From NCBI RefSeq assembly GCF_024223415.1, contig NZ_CP100500.1: DNA of 64,000 nucleotides, one strand, 5' to 3'. Position numbers and translations under genes: made by a program. Every line of letters begins with the position of its first letter. Positions within the stretch are counted from its first letter, which is position 1. Source of the DNA: Escherichia coli. GTDB taxonomy: Bacteria > Pseudomonadota > Gammaproteobacteria > Enterobacterales > Enterobacteriaceae. Shown here in pieces: positions 2,041 through 5,546 of this stretch. The notes under the pieces were generated by a model. It worked only from the letters and a program-made list of their open reading frames with translations, was not told where the DNA came from and searched no databases.

Positions 2041-2404
2041 CATATCTGAACAATACAGCCGCTTTGTGCGGTTTTTTTCATTTGCACAACAGGTAAGAGT
2101 ATTGAATCCGCAGACCTCGCGGAACTGGTGAAAGGTGCCGCGCAGTGCTCTTATCGTTGTGGTGAAGCTCAATGGCGAGCTAGCAGATAGGCGACAGTGA
2201 AAATACTAGTCATGTATCTGACCGCCGCGCGTACTGCAATCGGCAGCGCACCGATGGAAGCCGGTTCGATTCCGGCCGCCACAACCCAAACTGAGCCGTA
2301 GCCACTGGCTGTCCTGAACTCCTCAGTGATAGTTACGCTGCGGCCTTCTTTTTCCCCTTCCTAATACAAGAACTACGCAATCCGTTACTGGCGGAGGCGT
2401 TGCT

Positions 2405-2620
2405 ATGAAATCCATGGATAAGATAACAACGGGTGTCGCCTATGGCACCTCGGCAGGCAGTGCCGGGTACTGGTTTTTGCAGTGGATTGATCAGGTCAGT
2501 CCGTCACAGTGGGCTGCTATTGGTGTGCTGGGGAGTCTGGCACTGGGCTTTCTGACTTATCTGACGAATCTGTACTTCAAAATAAGAGAAGACAAGCGTA
2601 AGGCTGCACGGGGAGAGTAA
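2405..2620 (+). CDS. S: Class II holin (pinholin, phage 21 S21-like) with dual-start motif
   Basis: 71 aa, [30 protein letters not shown]... matches S21 as recalled; two TM segments; SD GGAGG upstream; M1-K-S-M4 dual start. Confidence 0.9.
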
Positions 2621-2624
2621 TTCA

Positions 2625-3176
2625 ATGACTCAAAACTATGAACTGATTGTGAAAGGGATCCGCAATTTTGAGAATAAAGTTACGGTAACTTTAGCGTTAC
2701 GGGACAAAAAACGCTTTGACGGTGAAATTTTTGACCTGGACATCTCGCTGGACCGTGTTGAAGGTGCCGCGCTGGAGTTTTATGAGTCAGCAGCCAGAAG
2801 GAGCATCAGACAGGTCTTCCTGGATGTTGTTGCCGGGTTATGTGAAGGGGATGAGCAGTCGCCGGAAAAGCGCCCCGTAATTTTAGAGGCGCAGAATGTG
2901 TGGATAACCTACAAAGGAAAGCTACCGGGAAGAATTACTGGTTCTCTGAAGACGCCACCGACGGCATTGCGGTCAGAAAAAGATGATATTGAATCGCCCA
3001 TTGAAAAACTGGAGGGCAGCGTAGCTGATCTGAATAAAAAATTGTCGGTGCTGATCCCTTCTGAAGATGAAAAAAAACGCCGCGATGAGCAGTTTGCGGC
3101 GTTTTACGATTATTGCATTGAAGTTACTCGCAGGAATTTTGTGAAGATTTTTGAGGAGGGTAAATCTCTTCAGTAA
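2625..3176 (+). CDS. Hypothetical protein (moron inserted between holin and endolysin)
   Basis: 183-aa ORF starting 4 nt after the holin stop with SD GGGGAGAG; no family recognised; AT-richer than flanking lysis genes. Confidence 0.6.
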   Translation: MTQNYELIVKGIRNFENKVTVTLALRDKKRFDGEIFDLDISLDRVEGAALEFYESAARRSIRQVFLDVVAGLCEGDEQSPEKRPVILEAQNVWITYKGKLPGRITGSLKTPPTALRSEKDDIESPIEKLEGSVADLNKKLSVLIPSEDEKKRRDEQFAAFYDYCIEVTRRNFVKIFEEGKSLQ

Positions 3177-3384
3177 GCTTAATGGCGGACGCTGCAATTA
3201 ATTCAGGAAGGTCCGCAAGGTCATCTGTCAGTGGATATGATGAAAAATCGGCGGCAGTTCTGTTAAGAATCGCTTTAACTAATTCCTTTTCCTTCTCCGG
3301 CAACAAGTTGATTAGAGCTACGACTGCTTGCCTGAGTGCGATTAAATCAGCAAAAGTTTGTTTTGGTAGATTTGTGTAATCCAT
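3124..3384 (-). CDS. Hypothetical small acidic protein, convergent with and 3'-overlapping the previous ORF
   Basis: 86 aa from ATG at 3384 (MDYTNLPKQTF...) with SD GAGGTG 3 nt upstream; the six-frame ORF extends to 3507 but that part overlaps the endolysin start and lacks an RBS. Confidence 0.5.
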   Translation of the reverse strand: MDYTNLPKQTFADLIALRQAVVALINLLPEKEKELVKAILNRTAADFSSYPLTDDLADLPELIAASAIKLTEEIYPPQKSSQNSCE

Positions 3385-3497
3385 AGTCACCTCTGTGTTT
3401 ATCAGATTGACATCCTCCTCCCGCCAGTGCCCATCACTGGTGAGGTAAGATTTAACATATCCAGGGTTCAGAAACCGATAAATCCTGATAAATATCC

Positions 3498-4031
3498 ATG
3501 AGCGCAAAAATCAAATACGGCCTGTCAGCTGCTGTTCTGGCGCTGATTGCTGCAGGCGCGTCTGCTCCTCAAATACTTGACCAGTTTCTGGATGAAAAAG
3601 AGGGTAACCACACTACGGCATACCGCGATGGTTCCGGTATATGGACCATCTGTCGTGGTGCCACAATGGTGGATGGTAAGCCCGTCATACCGGGAATGAA
3701 GCTGTCGAAGGAAAAATGCGACCAGGTTAACGCTATTGAACGTGATAAGGCGCTGGCATGGGTGGAGCGCAATATTAAAGTACCACTGACCGAACCACAA
3801 AAAGCGGGTATAGCGTCATTCTGTCCCTATAACATTGGCCCCGGTAAGTGTTTCCCGTCGACGTTTTATAAGCGGCTTAATGCCGGTGATCGTAAAGGTG
3901 CCTGTGAGTCGATTCGCTGGTGGATTAAGGACGGTGGGCGTGATTGCCGCACACGTTCAAATAACTGCTACGGACAGGTTATTCGTCGTGACCAGGAAGC
4001 AGCACTTGTGTGCTGGGATATCGACAGATGA
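3498..4031 (+). CDS. R: SAR endolysin (phage lysozyme, R21-like)
   Basis: 177 aa; N-terminal signal-anchor LSAAVLALIAAGASAP followed by lysozyme-like motifs (EGNHTTAYRDGSGIWTICRG); paired with a pinholin. Confidence 0.9.
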   Translation: MSAKIKYGLSAAVLALIAAGASAPQILDQFLDEKEGNHTTAYRDGSGIWTICRGATMVDGKPVIPGMKLSKEKCDQVNAIERDKALAWVERNIKVPLTEPQKAGIASFCPYNIGPGKCFPSTFYKRLNAGDRKGACESIRWWIKDGGRDCRTRSNNCYGQVIRRDQEAALVCWDIDR

Positions 4032-4125
4032 GCAGAATATTTTGCTGAAAAATGACGTTGGCCAACGCGGACGGATAACACGATATTCGACATAAATGAA
4101 TTTAAATAGTGAATAAAAGCAGAAA

Positions 4126-4154
4126 CCCCGATTGTTGGTCGCAATCGGGGTTTT
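4126..4154 (+). terminator. Rho-independent terminator immediately downstream of R
   Basis: 9-bp stem ccccgattg/caatcgggg, 7-nt loop, then TTTT. Confidence 0.6.
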
Positions 4155-4216
4155 GTGTTTCTGGCAGTAAGTTATGGGAGGCTGCCTTGATTAATTTTAG
4201 CGGAGGAGACTGGATT

Positions 4217-4354
4217 GTGGAAGCTCTGAAATTGCTCGAAAGAAGTCCGGTTCTGAGAAGAATGTTTTATATAGCTCTTATAGTTATCGGAGCATTCGCC
4301 GTTGCGAAATCACTTCCGGGAATAGCTGAAATCATAAAGGCGCTGAATGCATAA
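4217..4354 (+). CDS. Small membrane protein (45 aa, GTG start), part of the insertion between R and Rz
   Basis: SD GGAGGA 9 nt upstream of GTG; one predicted TM helix MFYIALIVIGAFAVA; alternative ATG start at 4262. Confidence 0.35.
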   Translation: MEALKLLERSPVLRRMFYIALIVIGAFAVAKSLPGIAEIIKALNA

Positions 4355-4520
4355 AGAATACCTGGCTGAGGCTGACAAACAGGTCTCTGAATTGAAAGCT
4401 CCGGTAACCGATGACATCAGCGGAGCGGTGGCTTTTGCCATTAAGTGGGTGGCAGTCGGCGTTGCTATATCACCGGTACTGTATGGGCTGGCAAAGCTGG
4501 TTATTGCGTTGAAATCATAA
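4347..4520 (+). CDS. Small membrane protein (57 aa), start overlaps the stop of the previous small ORF
   Basis: MHKEYLAEADKQVSELK... with C-terminal TM helix AFAIKWVAVGVAISPVLYGLAKLVIAL; below the 60-aa cutoff of the ORF track. Confidence 0.4.
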   Translation: MHKEYLAEADKQVSELKAPVTDDISGAVAFAIKWVAVGVAISPVLYGLAKLVIALKS

Positions 4521-4583
4521 CTGTTACGGCCAGGTGATTCGTCGTGACCAGGAAAGTGCATTAGCCTGTTGGGGGATAGATCA

Positions 4584-5051
4584 GTGAGCAGAGTCGCCGC
4601 GATTATTTATGCTCTGGTTATCTGCATCATCGTCTGCCTGTCGTGGGCGGTCAATCATTACCGTGATAACGCCATCGCCTACAAAGAACAGCGTGATAAA
4701 AAAGTCAGTGAGCTGAAGCAGGCGACCGCCACCATTACTGACATGCAGCAACGCCAGCGTGCTGCTGATGTACTCGATGCTAAATACACGAAGGAGTTGG
4801 CTGATGCGAAAGCTGAAAATGATGCTCTTCGGCGCAAGCTTGATAATGGTGGTCGGGTGCTCGTCAAAGGAAAATGCCCTGTGCCATCCTCAGCCGAAAC
4901 CTCCAGCGCCTCCGGCATGGGCAATGATGCCACCGTCGAACTCTCTCCAGTTGCTGGACGAAACGTTCTCGGTGTCCGGGACGGAATTATCCGCGACCAA
5001 ACAGCACTGAGAACGCTTCAGGAATACATCAGGACGCAATGCCTTCGATGA
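4584..5051 (+). CDS. Rz: Rz i-spanin
   Basis: GTG start, [40 protein letters not shown]... closely matches lambda Rz as recalled; N-terminal TM anchor. Confidence 0.85.
4804..5010 (+). CDS. Rz1: Rz1 o-spanin lipoprotein, embedded in the +1 frame of Rz
   Basis: [21 protein letters not shown]... with lipobox VVGC and proline-rich mature part; entirely inside Rz. Confidence 0.8.
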
Positions 5052-5191
5052 TAGCGATAATTTTACTCATCATCCTTCACATCTGGCTGTGTAGACAGGG
5101 TGGTGATCACTTCTGGAGTGAATCCAGATTAAACATCTCATTGCTGATGCTTGAAGTTGAGCATCTGGCGCGCGGTAAGGGGCTGCGTTGA
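5048..5191 (+). CDS. Possible small membrane protein (47 aa), ATG overlaps the Rz stop
   Basis: ATGA overlap with Rz stop; N-terminal hydrophobic [15 protein letters not shown]; followed by a terminator at 5226-5248. No homology support. Confidence 0.3.
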
Positions 5192-5225
5192 AATAAGAGC
5201 CAGTCATTAAAAATACCTGGATTTA

Positions 5226-5248
5226 GCCTCGCATTCGCGGGGCTTTTT
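5226..5248 (+). terminator. Rho-independent terminator
   Basis: Hairpin gcctcgc-attc-gcggggc followed by TTTTT. Confidence 0.5.
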
Positions 5249-5546
5249 ATTGCCATTACAAAAGCCACTCCCTACAGAGTGGCTTTGATAATGGCTTATA
5301 CCCTACACGGGATAACTTAACTGATATCCCTTTTAACGGATAAAGGTATTCAAGCCTGACACATCATGCGCTGTATCGTCGCCGTATTCCCGTATTAACA
5401 GAGACCGTAGCCCGACGGGGAACTCCTTCTGCGCGAGTGTGCGGGAATAATCAAAAACGATGCACACCGGGTTTTACTGTGCTGACAGACGCAGGGTTAC
5501 CCTCATAGTCGCTTTTCCGGTGCGATGGTGGAAGAAACCGGGATGT

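What the first reader, a model, noticed from the sequence alone, without database searches (positions are those of the whole stretch)
3966..4592. Second insertion between R and Rz, flanked by a duplicated R 3' end, carrying a terminator and small membrane-protein genes
The last ~70 bp of R (3966-4038, including a remnant Rz start ATGAGCAGA reading MSRIFC-stop) recur imperfectly at 4521-4592 just before the real Rz start. Between the copies are a strong terminator hairpin (4126-4154) and two overlapping small ORFs (45 aa from GTG 4217, and 57 aa at 4347-4520), each with one predicted TM helix. The duplication marks a recombination-mediated insertion. Small paired membrane peptides in a lysis cassette could be lysis modulators, a type I toxin-like pair or an exclusion function.
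Basis: seen in the sequence. Interest (0 to 1): 0.6.

Follow-up and report, generated by a model that had tools for sequence, protein, structure and literature searches.

The report
Lysis-cassette insert with small membrane genes
The cell-bursting gene set of an E. coli prophage carries a 0.5-kb recombined-in block, versions of which occur in about a third of E. coli genomes, holding a transcription stop signal and two genuine but uncharacterised genes for tiny membrane proteins. This is ordinary phage mosaicism, although what the tiny proteins do is still unknown.

Summary
The last ~76 nt of the endolysin gene R (3961-4036) recur at 4517-4592. Between the copies lie an intrinsic terminator (4122-4160) and two overlapping small ORFs, each predicted as one long hydrophobic helix.

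Relative to phage Perceval, where R and Rz overlap directly, 3999-4516 is an insertion. Its left crossover lies in a 38-nt block shared by two R alleles. Its right joint is non-homologous and keeps the recipient's R 3' end, which carries the Rz start.

The inserted content is not unusual:
- The spacer and terminator occur downstream of R in about 2,035 of 5,426 complete E. coli genomes.
- The ORF B core (PHROG 1115) occurs in 1,593 of them.
- Only 4 of about 90 loci examined carry the repeat.

Both ORFs are under strong purifying selection (dN/dS 0.05-0.22). ORF A always has a terminator just upstream. The terminator-leader sequence that precedes it beside baseplate genes also precedes ORF B relatives in the R-Rz slot. 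The module occurs in several late-operon slots, including outside lysis cassettes. No + strand promoter was found.

Best reading: a moron-like cassette expressed late by antiterminated read-through, encoding accessory inner-membrane proteins. A role in lysis is inferred, not shown. Rivals are an exclusion moron, a type I toxin-like pair and junk; junk is rejected.

The parts
2405..2620 (+). Context: S, a class II (phage 21-type) holin with an M1-K2-S3-M4 dual start
   Evidence: PHROG holin families phrog_9876 and phrog_20. Relatives are annotated as class II holin.
3498..4031 (+). R, an endolysin with a hydrophobic N-terminus (SAR-type lysozyme). The body up to 3998 is Perceval-like; the last 33 nt are Stx-prophage-like.
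   Evidence: phrog_7 endolysin, E 1.8e-62. The body is 92.9% identical to Perceval R, with the crossover at 3961-3998.
3961..4036 (+). Repeat copy 1: the R 3' end plus TGAGCAGA
4028..4048 (+). Mini-ORF MSRIFC*. The first 9 nt match a lambda-type Rz start, suggesting a remnant.
   Evidence: Read from the sequence. Homology beyond about 9-12 nt is not significant.
4032..4121 (+). AT-rich spacer (36% GC). The first 52 nt (4032-4083, including the palindrome CGTTGGCCAACG at 4056-4067) are 90.6-100% identical to prophages whose R bodies are only 82-90% identical.
   Evidence: No Rfam family.
4122..4160 (+). Intrinsic terminator hairpin plus T tract. It also scores as a terminator on the - strand.
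   Evidence: An upstream terminator is present in every ORF A context, and the type I hairpin-leader recurs in the baseplate context.
4165..4216 (+). Leader: hairpin GGCAG...CTGCC carrying SD1 (GGGAGG 4176-4181), upstream start TTG 4187, and SD2 (GGAGGAG 4202-4208)
   Evidence: The upstream start position is TTG, GTG or ATG in different relatives.
4187..4354 (+). ORF A: a small single-pass membrane protein, 45 aa from GTG 4217 and possibly also 55 aa from TTG 4187
   Evidence: 14 homologues in E. coli and Salmonella. dN/dS 0.08-0.22. The 5' 26 nt are invariant. PGAP starts a homologue at the equivalent GTG. Helix model.
4347..4520 (+). ORF B: a 57-aa small membrane protein of PHROG 1115. Its start overlaps the ORF A stop (ATGCATAA).
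   Evidence: phrog_1115, E 1.1e-26. 90 homologues. dN/dS 0.05-0.17. The core is in 1,593 of 5,426 E. coli genomes. Helix model.
4517..4592 (+). Repeat copy 2: an untranslated remnant of a Perceval-like R 3' end that supplies the native Shine-Dalgarno-like GGGGGA (4571-4576) and the GTG start of Rz
   Evidence: 94% identical to the intact R 3' end of Perceval
4584..5051 (+). Rz i-spanin (155 aa), lambda-like N-terminus
   Evidence: phrog_13, E 1.1e-72. The gene call in L004 is PF03245.
4804..5010 (+). Rz1 o-spanin embedded in the +1 frame, with lipobox VVGC
   Evidence: Translation
4194..4221 (-). Promoter-like site TCCACA-16-TAAAAT on the - strand, facing the bidirectional terminator; a candidate antisense RNA promoter
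   Evidence: 9 of 12 matches, but the number of hits in the region equals chance. The sequence is conserved in E. coli contexts but the -10 is lost in Salmonella.

Best explanation
This is a mosaic joint in the lysis cassette of a lambdoid E. coli prophage.

How it formed. A module of about 520 bp (3999-4516) was recombined into a Perceval/lambda-like cassette in which R and Rz normally overlap. The module comprises the last 33 nt of a Stx-prophage-type R, a conserved AT-rich spacer, an intrinsic terminator and a translationally coupled pair of genes for small single-pass membrane proteins. The left crossover fell in a 38-nt stretch conserved between the two R alleles. The right joint is non-homologous and lies immediately after the ORF B stop. 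It kept the recipient's last 69 nt of R, which carry the ribosome-binding site and GTG start of Rz. That is why an imperfect direct repeat flanks the block.

How it is probably expressed. The two small genes are real. No recognisable promoter of their own was found, an intrinsic terminator lies just upstream of ORF A wherever it occurs, and they lie co-directionally with lysis or virion structural genes. Most likely they are silent in the lysogen and are made only when Q-modified, terminator-resistant polymerase reads through from the late promoter. They would then appear together with holin, endolysin and spanin.

What the proteins probably do. Their most probable role is as accessory inner-membrane proteins acting at the membrane step at the end of the lytic cycle, as holin- or antiholin-like modulators of timing.

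What is shown and what is inferred. Shown: the anatomy, the recombination history, and that the ORFs code for protein. Inferred: the mode of expression, and especially the function.
For: Structure:
- Perceval has an uninterrupted R-Rz junction. Its nt 1212-1249 align to both 3961-3998 and 4517-4554.
- Segment identities show a Perceval-like R body (93%) and R' remnant (94%) around an interior that matches Stx-type prophages: spacer 98-100%, ORF B core 96% to L001.
- The same arrangement occurs in two E. coli draft assemblies with a different R body (92%) but an essentially identical interior.
- L001 shares the ORF B / R-remnant joint.
- The insert is 45% GC against 51-53% for R and Rz.

Real genes:
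- dN/dS is 0.05-0.17 for ORF B and 0.08-0.22 for ORF A across E. coli and Salmonella homologues.
- ORF B matches phrog_1115 at E 1e-26.
- Both have strong Shine-Dalgarno sequences, and the ATGnnTAA/TAG overlap is conserved in most contexts where a downstream partner ORF is present.

Module with its own 5' terminator:
- ORF A is preceded by an intrinsic, bidirectional terminator in the R-Rz slot, after an M15-peptidase endolysin, after baseplate genes, and at a prophage end.
- The same hairpin-leader sequence (CTGACCTTGAATAAGGCAAGGGA) occurs in the R-Rz slot ahead of ORF B relatives and in the baseplate slot ahead of ORF A.

Expression:
- No + strand sigma-70-like promoter was found in 2300-5400.
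- Q-modified polymerase reading through intrinsic terminators is established lambda biology.

Lysis link:
- The R-Rz slot holds related small membrane genes (phrog_1115, 4906, 6632) in most of the 77 viral contigs examined, and in Salmonella.
- The ORF A + ORF B pair also follows an unrelated endolysin.
- Sequence features resemble holin dual starts: two in-frame starts, each with a Shine-Dalgarno sequence, in ORF A, and a basic 12-aa N-terminal extension in long forms of ORF B.
Against: - There are no expression data of any kind.
- ORF A is more often found outside lysis cassettes than inside. Of 15 viral contigs, 9 have it after baseplate genes, 1 after a methylase-like ORF and 5 in Salmonella lysis cassettes. 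It also sits at decayed prophage ends next to host genes. The position beside R and Rz is therefore weak evidence for a lysis role.
- The same slot holds an unrelated Rha/antirepressor gene in 933W-like phages.
- There is no match to any holin, antiholin, releasin or defence family.
- Similarity of the ORF B helix to the second transmembrane domain of the phage-21-type holin is not significant (E 0.03-0.06).
- The late promoter and Q lie outside the window, so antiterminated read-through is assumed, not seen.
Confidence: 0.5

Rival explanations
1. Lysogenic-conversion or exclusion moron. The small membrane proteins are expressed from the prophage and benefit the lysogen, for example by blocking DNA entry of superinfecting phages at the inner membrane. 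The upstream terminator merely insulates them from the late operon.
For: - The module moves between unrelated slots and prophage types.
- It persists at the edges of degraded prophages beside host genes.
- Its GC content is lower than its flanks.
- The same slot carries a non-lysis gene (Rha/antirepressor) in other phages.
Against: - No + strand promoter was found. Only 25-45 nt separate the terminator from the ribosome-binding site in all contexts, and no promoter motif is conserved there.
- There is no PADLOC match.
- All occurrences are co-oriented with the adjacent lysis or structural genes.
Confidence: 0.25
2. Type I toxin-antitoxin-like pair. ORF A and/or ORF B is a membrane-depolarising toxin. 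Its translation start region is covered by a short antisense RNA that starts at the - strand promoter-like site (4221-4194) and ends at the - strand face of the bidirectional terminator (4153-4123).
For: - These are small hydrophobic single-helix proteins.
- The terminator scores on both strands, and a two-faced terminator accompanies ORF A in every context.
- TCCACA-16-TAAAAT is conserved in the E. coli contexts shown.
- The predicted RNA would carry CCUCC opposite the upstream Shine-Dalgarno sequence.
- Synonymous sites in the first ~12 codons of ORF A are frozen: 6 of 69 pairs differ against 70 of 183 elsewhere, Fisher p 2e-6.
- ORF B occurs in up to 7 copies per genome and is retained in decaying prophages.
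Against: - Promoter-like hits in the region are at chance level (4 found, 4.2 expected).
- In Salmonella the -10 becomes TATGCG while the ORF and its ribosome-binding site stay invariant. The frozen segment is therefore better explained as the translation-initiation region of the internal GTG.
- No promoter for the toxin mRNA was found.
- There is no Rfam hit to Sok or other antitoxin RNAs.
- The predicted RNA would not cover SD2 or GTG 4217.
Confidence: 0.1
3. The functional element is RNA rather than the small proteins. The conserved spacer plus terminator (4032-4160) would form the 3' end of the S-R message, or a 3'-UTR-derived small RNA. This is not exclusive of the other readings.
For: - The first 52 nt after the R stop are 90.6-100% identical in prophages whose R bodies are 82-90% identical. 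They are recognisable even in Salmonella.
- They contain two small hairpins and are followed by a strong terminator. The fold z-score is -2.8.
- Two different hairpin types follow the same spacer.
Against: - No Rfam family matches. AgvB, AsxR, Esr41 and the other prophage sRNA models do not hit.
- The Pas sRNAs of E. coli prophages map upstream of the holin gene, not here.
- The conserved part does not vary, so there is no covariation evidence.
- High conservation could equally reflect a recombination linker between modules.
- Part of the sample was selected with a 24-nt pattern from this very spacer.
Confidence: 0.1
4. Non-functional filler: a decaying spacer with chance ORFs left by recombination.
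For: - The R' remnant and the MSRIFC mini-ORF are indeed relics.
- Some relatives carry frameshifted or fused copies of ORF B (L006; P0108 and P0111).
Against: - dN/dS is 0.05-0.22 with dS up to 0.7-2.
- Ribosome-binding sites and start/stop overlaps are conserved.
- The genes are present in 29% of complete E. coli genomes and in inducible phages.
Confidence: 0.03

Closest known systems
Morons of lambdoid phages (as defined in PMC2629481 and the work it cites)
   Same: A gene block that appears inserted into a late operon when relatives are compared (Perceval lacks it). It has lower GC than its flanks, sharp mosaic boundaries, its own transcription signal, and moves between slots.
   Different: The transcription signal is a terminator on the 5' side and no promoter is detectable. 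Independent expression, usual for morons, is therefore not supported.
The R-ant-Rz arrangement of 933W-like Stx phages
   Same: Same slot and the same conserved spacer after the R stop, followed by a terminator and then cargo.
   Different: The cargo there is a 189-aa Rha/antirepressor-like protein behind a different hairpin. Here it is two small membrane proteins.
PHROG 1115 (with 4493 and 3246), and the neighbouring small-protein PHROGs 6632 and 4906
   Same: ORF B is a clear member (E 1e-26). Family members sit between R and Rz in E. coli and Salmonella prophages, including phage H-19B for phrog_6632.
   Different: The window's ORF B has a different N-terminus (MHKEYLAEADKQVS) and is coupled to ORF A. 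ORF A belongs to no PHROG, Pfam or NCBIfam family.
Holin/antiholin dual-start pairs (lambda S107/S105, phage 21 S71/S68)
   Same: Small late membrane proteins. Two in-frame starts, each with a Shine-Dalgarno sequence. In long ORF B forms a basic N-terminal extension would change the charge balance across the helix.
   Different: No sequence-family match, one helix instead of two or three, use of both starts unproven, and ORF A often lies outside lysis cassettes.
Type I toxin-antitoxin loci (hok/sok, ibs/sib, zor/orz)
   Same: Hydrophobic peptides under 60 aa in prophages, coupled reading frames, and a possible antisense promoter facing a bidirectional terminator.
   Different: No toxin promoter, the antisense promoter is not conserved in Salmonella, there is no Rfam match, and toxicity is untested.
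Mu releasin gp25 (DUF2730; PMC9239132)
   Same: A membrane-tethered accessory protein encoded near a SAR endolysin. It shows that lysis cassettes can hold unrecognised membrane regulators.
   Different: No DUF2730 match, a much smaller protein, and no cytoplasmic domain.

Membership tests
PHROG 1115 (ORF B) | Significant match to the family profile | tested here: met
   E 1.1e-26, residues 11-57 on profile positions 21-67 of 67
PHROG / Pfam / NCBIfam family for ORF A | Significant match to any profile | tested here: not met
   No hit in PHROGs, NCBIfam or Pfam. Only 14 homologues were found in 5.8 billion proteins.
Intrinsic (Rho-independent) terminator | G+C-rich stem-loop followed by a T tract | tested here: met
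   14-pair stem with 6 G-C pairs, then TTTTGTGTTT. It is in the minimum-free-energy structure.
Intrinsic (Rho-independent) terminator | Structure kept among relatives | tested here: met
   95.8% of cells paired across 13 variants, one pair with A-U/U-A exchange. Slid controls give 39-61%.
Intrinsic (Rho-independent) terminator | Terminates transcription in vivo | not testable with these tools
   Needs Term-seq or a reporter assay
Moron | Absent from the same junction in related phages | tested here: met
   Perceval and K-12 Qin have R overlapping Rz or RzpQ directly
Moron | Own promoter (independent expression) | tested here: not met
   No + strand promoter-like site in 2300-5400. No conserved motif in the 25-45 nt between terminator and ribosome-binding site.
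Moron | Own terminator and a composition different from the flanks | tested here: met
   A terminator is present in every context, but at the 5' end. GC is 0.45 against 0.51-0.53.
Holin / antiholin | Match to a known holin family | tested here: not met
   No holin PHROG or Pfam hit for ORF A or ORF B. Similarity of ORF B to the second helix of the phage-21-type holin has E 0.03-0.06.
Holin / antiholin | At least one transmembrane domain, encoded in a lysis cassette | tested here: met
   One hydrophobic helix each, between R and Rz. The location is not exclusive, however.
Holin / antiholin | Dual-start motif giving two isoforms | tested here: inconclusive
   ORF A has SD1 + TTG/GTG/ATG and SD2 + an invariant GTG ten codons apart. 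ORF B relatives have 60-aa and 48-aa forms. Use of both starts is not shown.
Holin / antiholin | Forms membrane lesions or controls lysis timing | not testable with these tools
   Needs genetics and physiology
Type I toxin-antitoxin | Small hydrophobic toxin peptide | tested here: met
   45-57 aa, single helix
Type I toxin-antitoxin | Antisense or divergent antitoxin RNA gene with promoter and terminator | tested here: inconclusive
   A - strand promoter-like site (9 of 12) faces a - strand terminator. It is conserved in E. coli contexts, the -10 is lost in Salmonella, the hit count equals chance, and there is no Rfam match.
Type I toxin-antitoxin | Toxicity on overexpression, neutralised by the RNA | not testable with these tools
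   Experiment needed
Releasin (DUF2730) | DUF2730 domain | tested here: not met
   No Pfam match even at E <= 10
Known anti-phage defence proteins (PADLOC) | Match to a defence-system model | tested here: not met
   No hit at E <= 1 for ORF A, ORF B or the related small proteins
Known prophage sRNA families (Rfam: AgvB, AsxR, Esr41, Sok, DicF and others) | Covariance-model match in 3966-4592 | tested here: not met
   Only a sub-threshold BSnc120 hit on the terminator (23.5 bits against 114 needed)

The most novel reading that the evidence does not exclude
ORF A, ORF B (PHROG 1115) and the '...IRWW' peptides (PHROG 6632) would form one unrecognised superfamily of minimal, single-helix lysis-timing proteins of enterobacterial temperate phages. 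They would be holin- or antiholin-like, made in two isoforms from dual starts whose N-terminal extension flips or blocks membrane insertion. They would be kept strictly late by a terminator carried at their own 5' end, so that only antiterminated polymerase expresses them.
Probability: 0.12. Interest if true: 0.6.

Novelty: new member of a known kind. Interest (0 to 1): 0.33.

Why it matters
The finding itself is a textbook-style example of lambdoid mosaicism and needs no new concept.

Its value is as a pointer. Homologues of ORF B lie in about 29% of complete E. coli genomes, including O157:H7 strains. Related peptides occur in classic Stx phages such as H-19B, usually unannotated. All are under strong purifying selection and have no known function.

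If they modulate lysis they would affect the timing of phage and Shiga-toxin release. If they are exclusion factors or toxins they would affect prophage maintenance.

The retained R remnant also illustrates how recombination must preserve the translation start of an overlapping downstream gene.

Tried and rejected
1. The spacer 4029-4125 as a decayed copy of the Rz 5' third. The local alignment score was reached by 377 of 1000 dinucleotide shuffles (709 of 1000 for the E. coli consensus spacer). Rejected beyond the first ~9 nt.
2. ORF A and ORF B as detectable paralogues. hhalign aligns their C-terminal halves, but at E 0.023 and probability 2%. Shared C-terminal motifs (..A[IL]K[SG]..IRWW) across families remain only suggestive.
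3. ORF B as homologous to the second helix of the phage-21-type holin. E 0.03-0.06. The S::ORF B hybrid P0090 is a single 554-nt metagenome scaffold and may be an assembly chimera.
4. A known sRNA in the spacer. No Rfam hit. The Pas sRNAs lie elsewhere. The supplement of the EHEC Hfq-CRAC paper gave nothing mappable.
5. Published translation evidence. The peptides were not found in the supplements of the Sakai Ribo-seq small-gene paper. The Enterobacteriaceae microproteome preprint does not mention prophage lysis genes.
6. A K-12 counterpart. In Qin, rrrQ overlaps rzpQ and there is no spacer.
7. Defence, PDB and NCBIfam matches. None.
8. A conserved + strand promoter in the leader. Not found.
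Full report
SETTING

The window is from E. coli: host genes at 46-48.5 kb are 100% identical to E. coli chromosomes. Its left end is the late region of a lambdoid prophage. In order it holds:
- a porin gene on the - strand (75-1178);
- three tRNA genes (1777-2009);
- a phage-21-type class II holin S (2405-2620);
- a first insertion (a 183-aa ORF and an antisense ORF);
- the endolysin R (3498-4031);
- the region under study;
- Rz (GTG 4584-5051) with Rz1 embedded (4804-5010, lipobox VVGC);
- then the terminase genes.

CHECKING THE OBSERVATION

The repeat. The R 3' end (3961-4036) recurs at 4517-4592. The first 38 nt are 92% identical, and this is the only significant second match of that sequence in the 64 kb (E 1.7e-10). 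Ungapped, 51 of 69 nt match, followed by a shared TGAGCAGA. Copy 2 still reads in frame as a complete R C-terminus with its stop codon. It differs from copy 1 mostly at synonymous positions (7 synonymous against 4 non-synonymous codons). It therefore diverged while it was still coding, so it comes from a second R allele and not from a recent local copy. The GTG of Rz overlaps the TGA of this remnant.

The terminator. The hairpin at 4122-4154 with its T tract is called as a terminator on both strands. It dominates the predicted fold. It is conserved in 13 sequence variants, with 95.8% of cells paired and one A-U/U-A exchange. Controls with the partner slid by 1-3 columns give 39-61%.

The small ORFs. 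ORF A (to 4354) and ORF B (4347-4520) overlap by ATGCATAA. Each is predicted as one long helix with a hydrophobic core of about 19 residues.

HOW THE ARRANGEMENT AROSE

Phage Perceval has R and Rz overlapping with nothing in between. When it is aligned to the window, its R matches 3452-3998 (94%) and its R 3' end plus Rz matches 4517-4828 (86.5%). The two alignments share Perceval nt 1212-1249, which is exactly the repeated block. Relative to such a backbone, 3999-4516 is an insertion.

Segment-by-segment identities show three things:
- The interior comes from a different lineage. The last 33 nt of R and the first 52 nt of the spacer are 98-100% identical to Stx-type prophages whose R bodies are only 82-90% identical.
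- The ORF B core is 96% identical to E. coli E7-1N7 (L001).
- The R' remnant is 94% identical to Perceval's intact R end.

The left crossover therefore lies in the 38-nt block conserved between the R alleles.

The right joint follows the ORF B stop directly (GTTGAAATCATAA|CTGTTACGG). Only a few bases resemble the corresponding point in R (GTTCAAATAA|CTGCTACGG), so it is an illegitimate or microhomology joint.

Three further observations bear on age and spread:
- L001 has the same joint with a more decayed remnant, so the joint is older than this prophage.
- Two E. coli draft assemblies (L004, L005) have the identical interior behind a different R body (92%). The block is therefore now spreading by homologous exchange.
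- Of about 90 loci examined, only these four carry a second copy of the R end.

The remnant contains the native GGGGGA-N7-GTG initiation region of Rz. I infer that this is why it was kept.

HOW TYPICAL THE CONTENT IS

The content is very typical.
- Some part of the query occurs in 2,035 of 5,426 complete E. coli genomes, mostly the R end, spacer and terminator. None has the whole arrangement.
- 77 viral contigs share a 24-nt spacer motif.
- In all of them a conserved spacer of about 85 nt ending in GTGAATAAA follows the R stop. One of two terminator hairpins comes next.
- The first hairpin is followed by small membrane-protein genes: PHROG 6632 alone, or PHROG 1115 plus PHROG 4906. The second is followed by a Rha/antirepressor-like gene, as in 933W-type phages. 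Rz comes after either.
- The ORF B core alone occurs in 1,593 genomes, with up to 7 copies each, including O157:H7. It is present in a few isolated phages.
- PHROG 6632 peptides occur in 46 phage records including H-19B, mostly unannotated.
- K-12 Qin lacks the slot.
- ORF A is rare: 29 full-length copies in complete genomes, unannotated, and 14 protein clusters in total.

ARE THE SMALL ORFS GENES?

Yes.
- Nei-Gojobori estimates give dN/dS of 0.05-0.17 for the ORF B core at dS about 0.5-0.7.
- For ORF A they give 0.08-0.22 at dS 0.7-2.3, between E. coli contexts and Salmonella.
- ORF B matches phrog_1115 at E 1e-26.
- The family is narrow: 16 cluster representatives among 1.8 billion proteins.

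ORF A start sites:
- The 26 nt AGCGGAGGAGACTGGATTGTGGAAGC are invariant from E. coli to Salmonella.
- Synonymous differences in codons 2-13 are 6 of 69 pairs, against 70 of 183 in the rest (Fisher p 2e-6; the pairs are not independent).
- This fits the translation-initiation region of GTG 4217, which is the start NCBI's pipeline uses for a homologue.
- In E. coli contexts there is also an upstream Shine-Dalgarno sequence (GGAGG-N5-6) ahead of a codon that is TTG, GTG or ATG in different relatives. A second, longer isoform of 55 aa is therefore plausible.

ORF B forms:
- Relatives come in a 48-aa form (MKNG...) and a 60-aa form with a conserved basic extension (MxKYKRILLRLT).
- The extension changes the N-flank charge from about -2 to +4.

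WHAT TRAVELS WITH THEM

ORF A is followed by a partner ORF whose ATG overlaps its stop (ATGnnTAA or TAG) in most contexts. It is always preceded by an intrinsic terminator with U/A tracts on both sides. The contexts are:
- the window;
- Salmonella R-Rz slots;
- a cassette with holin_8, holin_3_7 and an M15-peptidase endolysin, where the partner is a full ORF B homologue;
- prophage ends next to host sugar-transport genes;
- after a baseplate gene in another prophage type, where up to four such small genes form an array.

The hairpin-leader sequence ahead of ORF A in the baseplate context is the same one that precedes ORF B relatives in the R-Rz slot. The mobile unit therefore appears to be terminator, leader and small gene(s). 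Some ORF A and ORF B relatives end in ...IRWW like PHROG 6632, which suggests module shuffling within a loose superfamily. Profile comparison does not establish homology, however.

MECHANISM

No + strand promoter-like site exists in 2300-5400. The 25-45 nt between terminator and ribosome-binding site hold no conserved promoter motif. In every context I examined, the module is co-directional with adjacent lysis or virion structural genes.

In lambdoid phages the late operon is transcribed by Q-modified polymerase, which ignores intrinsic terminators (established knowledge). The simplest reading follows:
- The terminator blocks any unmodified read-through in the lysogen.
- The small proteins are made only late, together with S, R and Rz/Rz1.
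- Small inner-membrane proteins gated so tightly and encoded next to holin, endolysin and spanin genes are most plausibly accessory modulators of the membrane step of lysis.

I hold the functional step at about 0.3, because ORF A is more often outside lysis cassettes and there is no family match. The anatomy and history I hold at 0.85 or above.

RIVALS

- A lysogen-expressed exclusion or fitness moron. It is favoured by the module's mobility and by its retention in decayed prophages. It is weakened by the lack of a promoter and of any PADLOC hit.
- A type I toxin-like locus. A - strand promoter-like site (4221-4194) faces the - strand terminator, and the predicted RNA would carry an anti-Shine-Dalgarno sequence. 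But the promoter count is at chance, the -10 is lost in Salmonella, and no toxin promoter or Rfam match exists.
- An RNA function for the unusually conserved first 52 nt of the spacer. It is open but unsupported by covariation or Rfam.
- Junk. Excluded by the substitution pattern.

COMPARISON AND NOVELTY

The feature is a moron-like insertion in the sense used for lambdoid and P22-like phages (PMC2629481). It occupies the same slot as the antirepressor gene of 933W-like phages. ORF B is a member of PHROG 1115. ORF A has no family.

It is not a member of the holin, releasin (DUF2730; PMC9239132), defence or known sRNA families. Each of these was tested and not met.

It is a new member of a known kind. 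Interest is modest and lies mainly in the uncharacterised, widespread small membrane proteins.

Noticed in passing
window 2625-3176 (+) and 3127-3384 (-): A first insertion lies between S and R. It comprises a 183-aa ORF (phrog_2091, E 7e-110, unknown function) and a convergent 86-aa ORF (phrog_2572). Relatives hold a YdfR-family gene or other ORFs in this slot. There is no NCBIfam or PADLOC match.
   Followed up: partly
window 5039-5191 (+), terminator 5225-5244: A 50-aa ORF with a hydrophobic N-terminus ([18 protein letters not shown]...) starts just before the Rz stop codon and is followed by a strong terminator. It is conserved in L004/L005 and was called as a gene there. It is another unannotated small membrane protein at the end of the lysis cassette, in the place where bor sits in lambda and Perceval.
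   Followed up: no
window 4032-4083 (palindrome CGTTGGCCAACG at 4056-4067): The first 52 nt after the R stop are 90.6-100% identical in prophages whose R coding regions are only 82-90% identical, and are recognisable in Salmonella. The segment is more conserved than the gene it follows. The cause is unknown: an RNA element, a binding site or a recombination linker.
   Followed up: partly
window 4187-4245; L085-L110: The first ~12 codons of ORF A show almost no synonymous change across contexts. They contain a perfect internal Shine-Dalgarno sequence plus GTG. The upstream in-frame start position is TTG, GTG or ATG in different relatives. This is a possible dual-start gene.
   Followed up: partly
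L094 2500-3205; L106: In another prophage type, an array of four consecutive small membrane-protein genes sits right after a baseplate gene. The array is an ORF A homologue, an overlapping 54-aa ORF, and two PHROG 6632-like '...IRWR/IRWW' peptides. It is unannotated in RefSeq.
   Followed up: partly
L089 1230-2854: A different lysis cassette (Phage_holin_8, Phage_holin_3_7, M15 peptidase) carries the same ORF A + ORF B pair. It is followed by a 60-aa predicted lipoprotein (lipobox LAGC), possibly an o-spanin or u-spanin-like protein.
   Followed up: no
L085 1557-1667 (Salmonella prophage): A 36-aa hydrophobic ORF (VSKRDVSALCFLMAAAVAIS...) starts with a GTG overlapping the R stop, as Rz does elsewhere. 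It may be a longer remnant of an Rz 5' end ahead of the spacer.
   Followed up: no
P0090 / L093 (554-nt metagenome scaffold): A hybrid ORF joins the N-terminal half of a phage-21-type holin to the C-terminal 23 residues of ORF B at the shared motif W-[VA]-A-[VI]-G-V. It is either a natural deletion between similar helices or an assembly chimera.
   Followed up: partly
window 2229-2287 (+): A sub-threshold Rfam match to tmRNA (20 bits, E 4.5e-5) lies just downstream of the tRNA-Met/Arg/Thr cluster (1777-2009) and upstream of S. It is possibly a fragment of an ssrA-like or tRNA-like sequence.
   Followed up: no
phage H-19B AF034975 17590-17685 and 45 other phage records: The 32-aa PHROG 6632 peptide gene directly upstream of Rz is present in classic Stx phages but is unannotated in most records.
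   Followed up: partly
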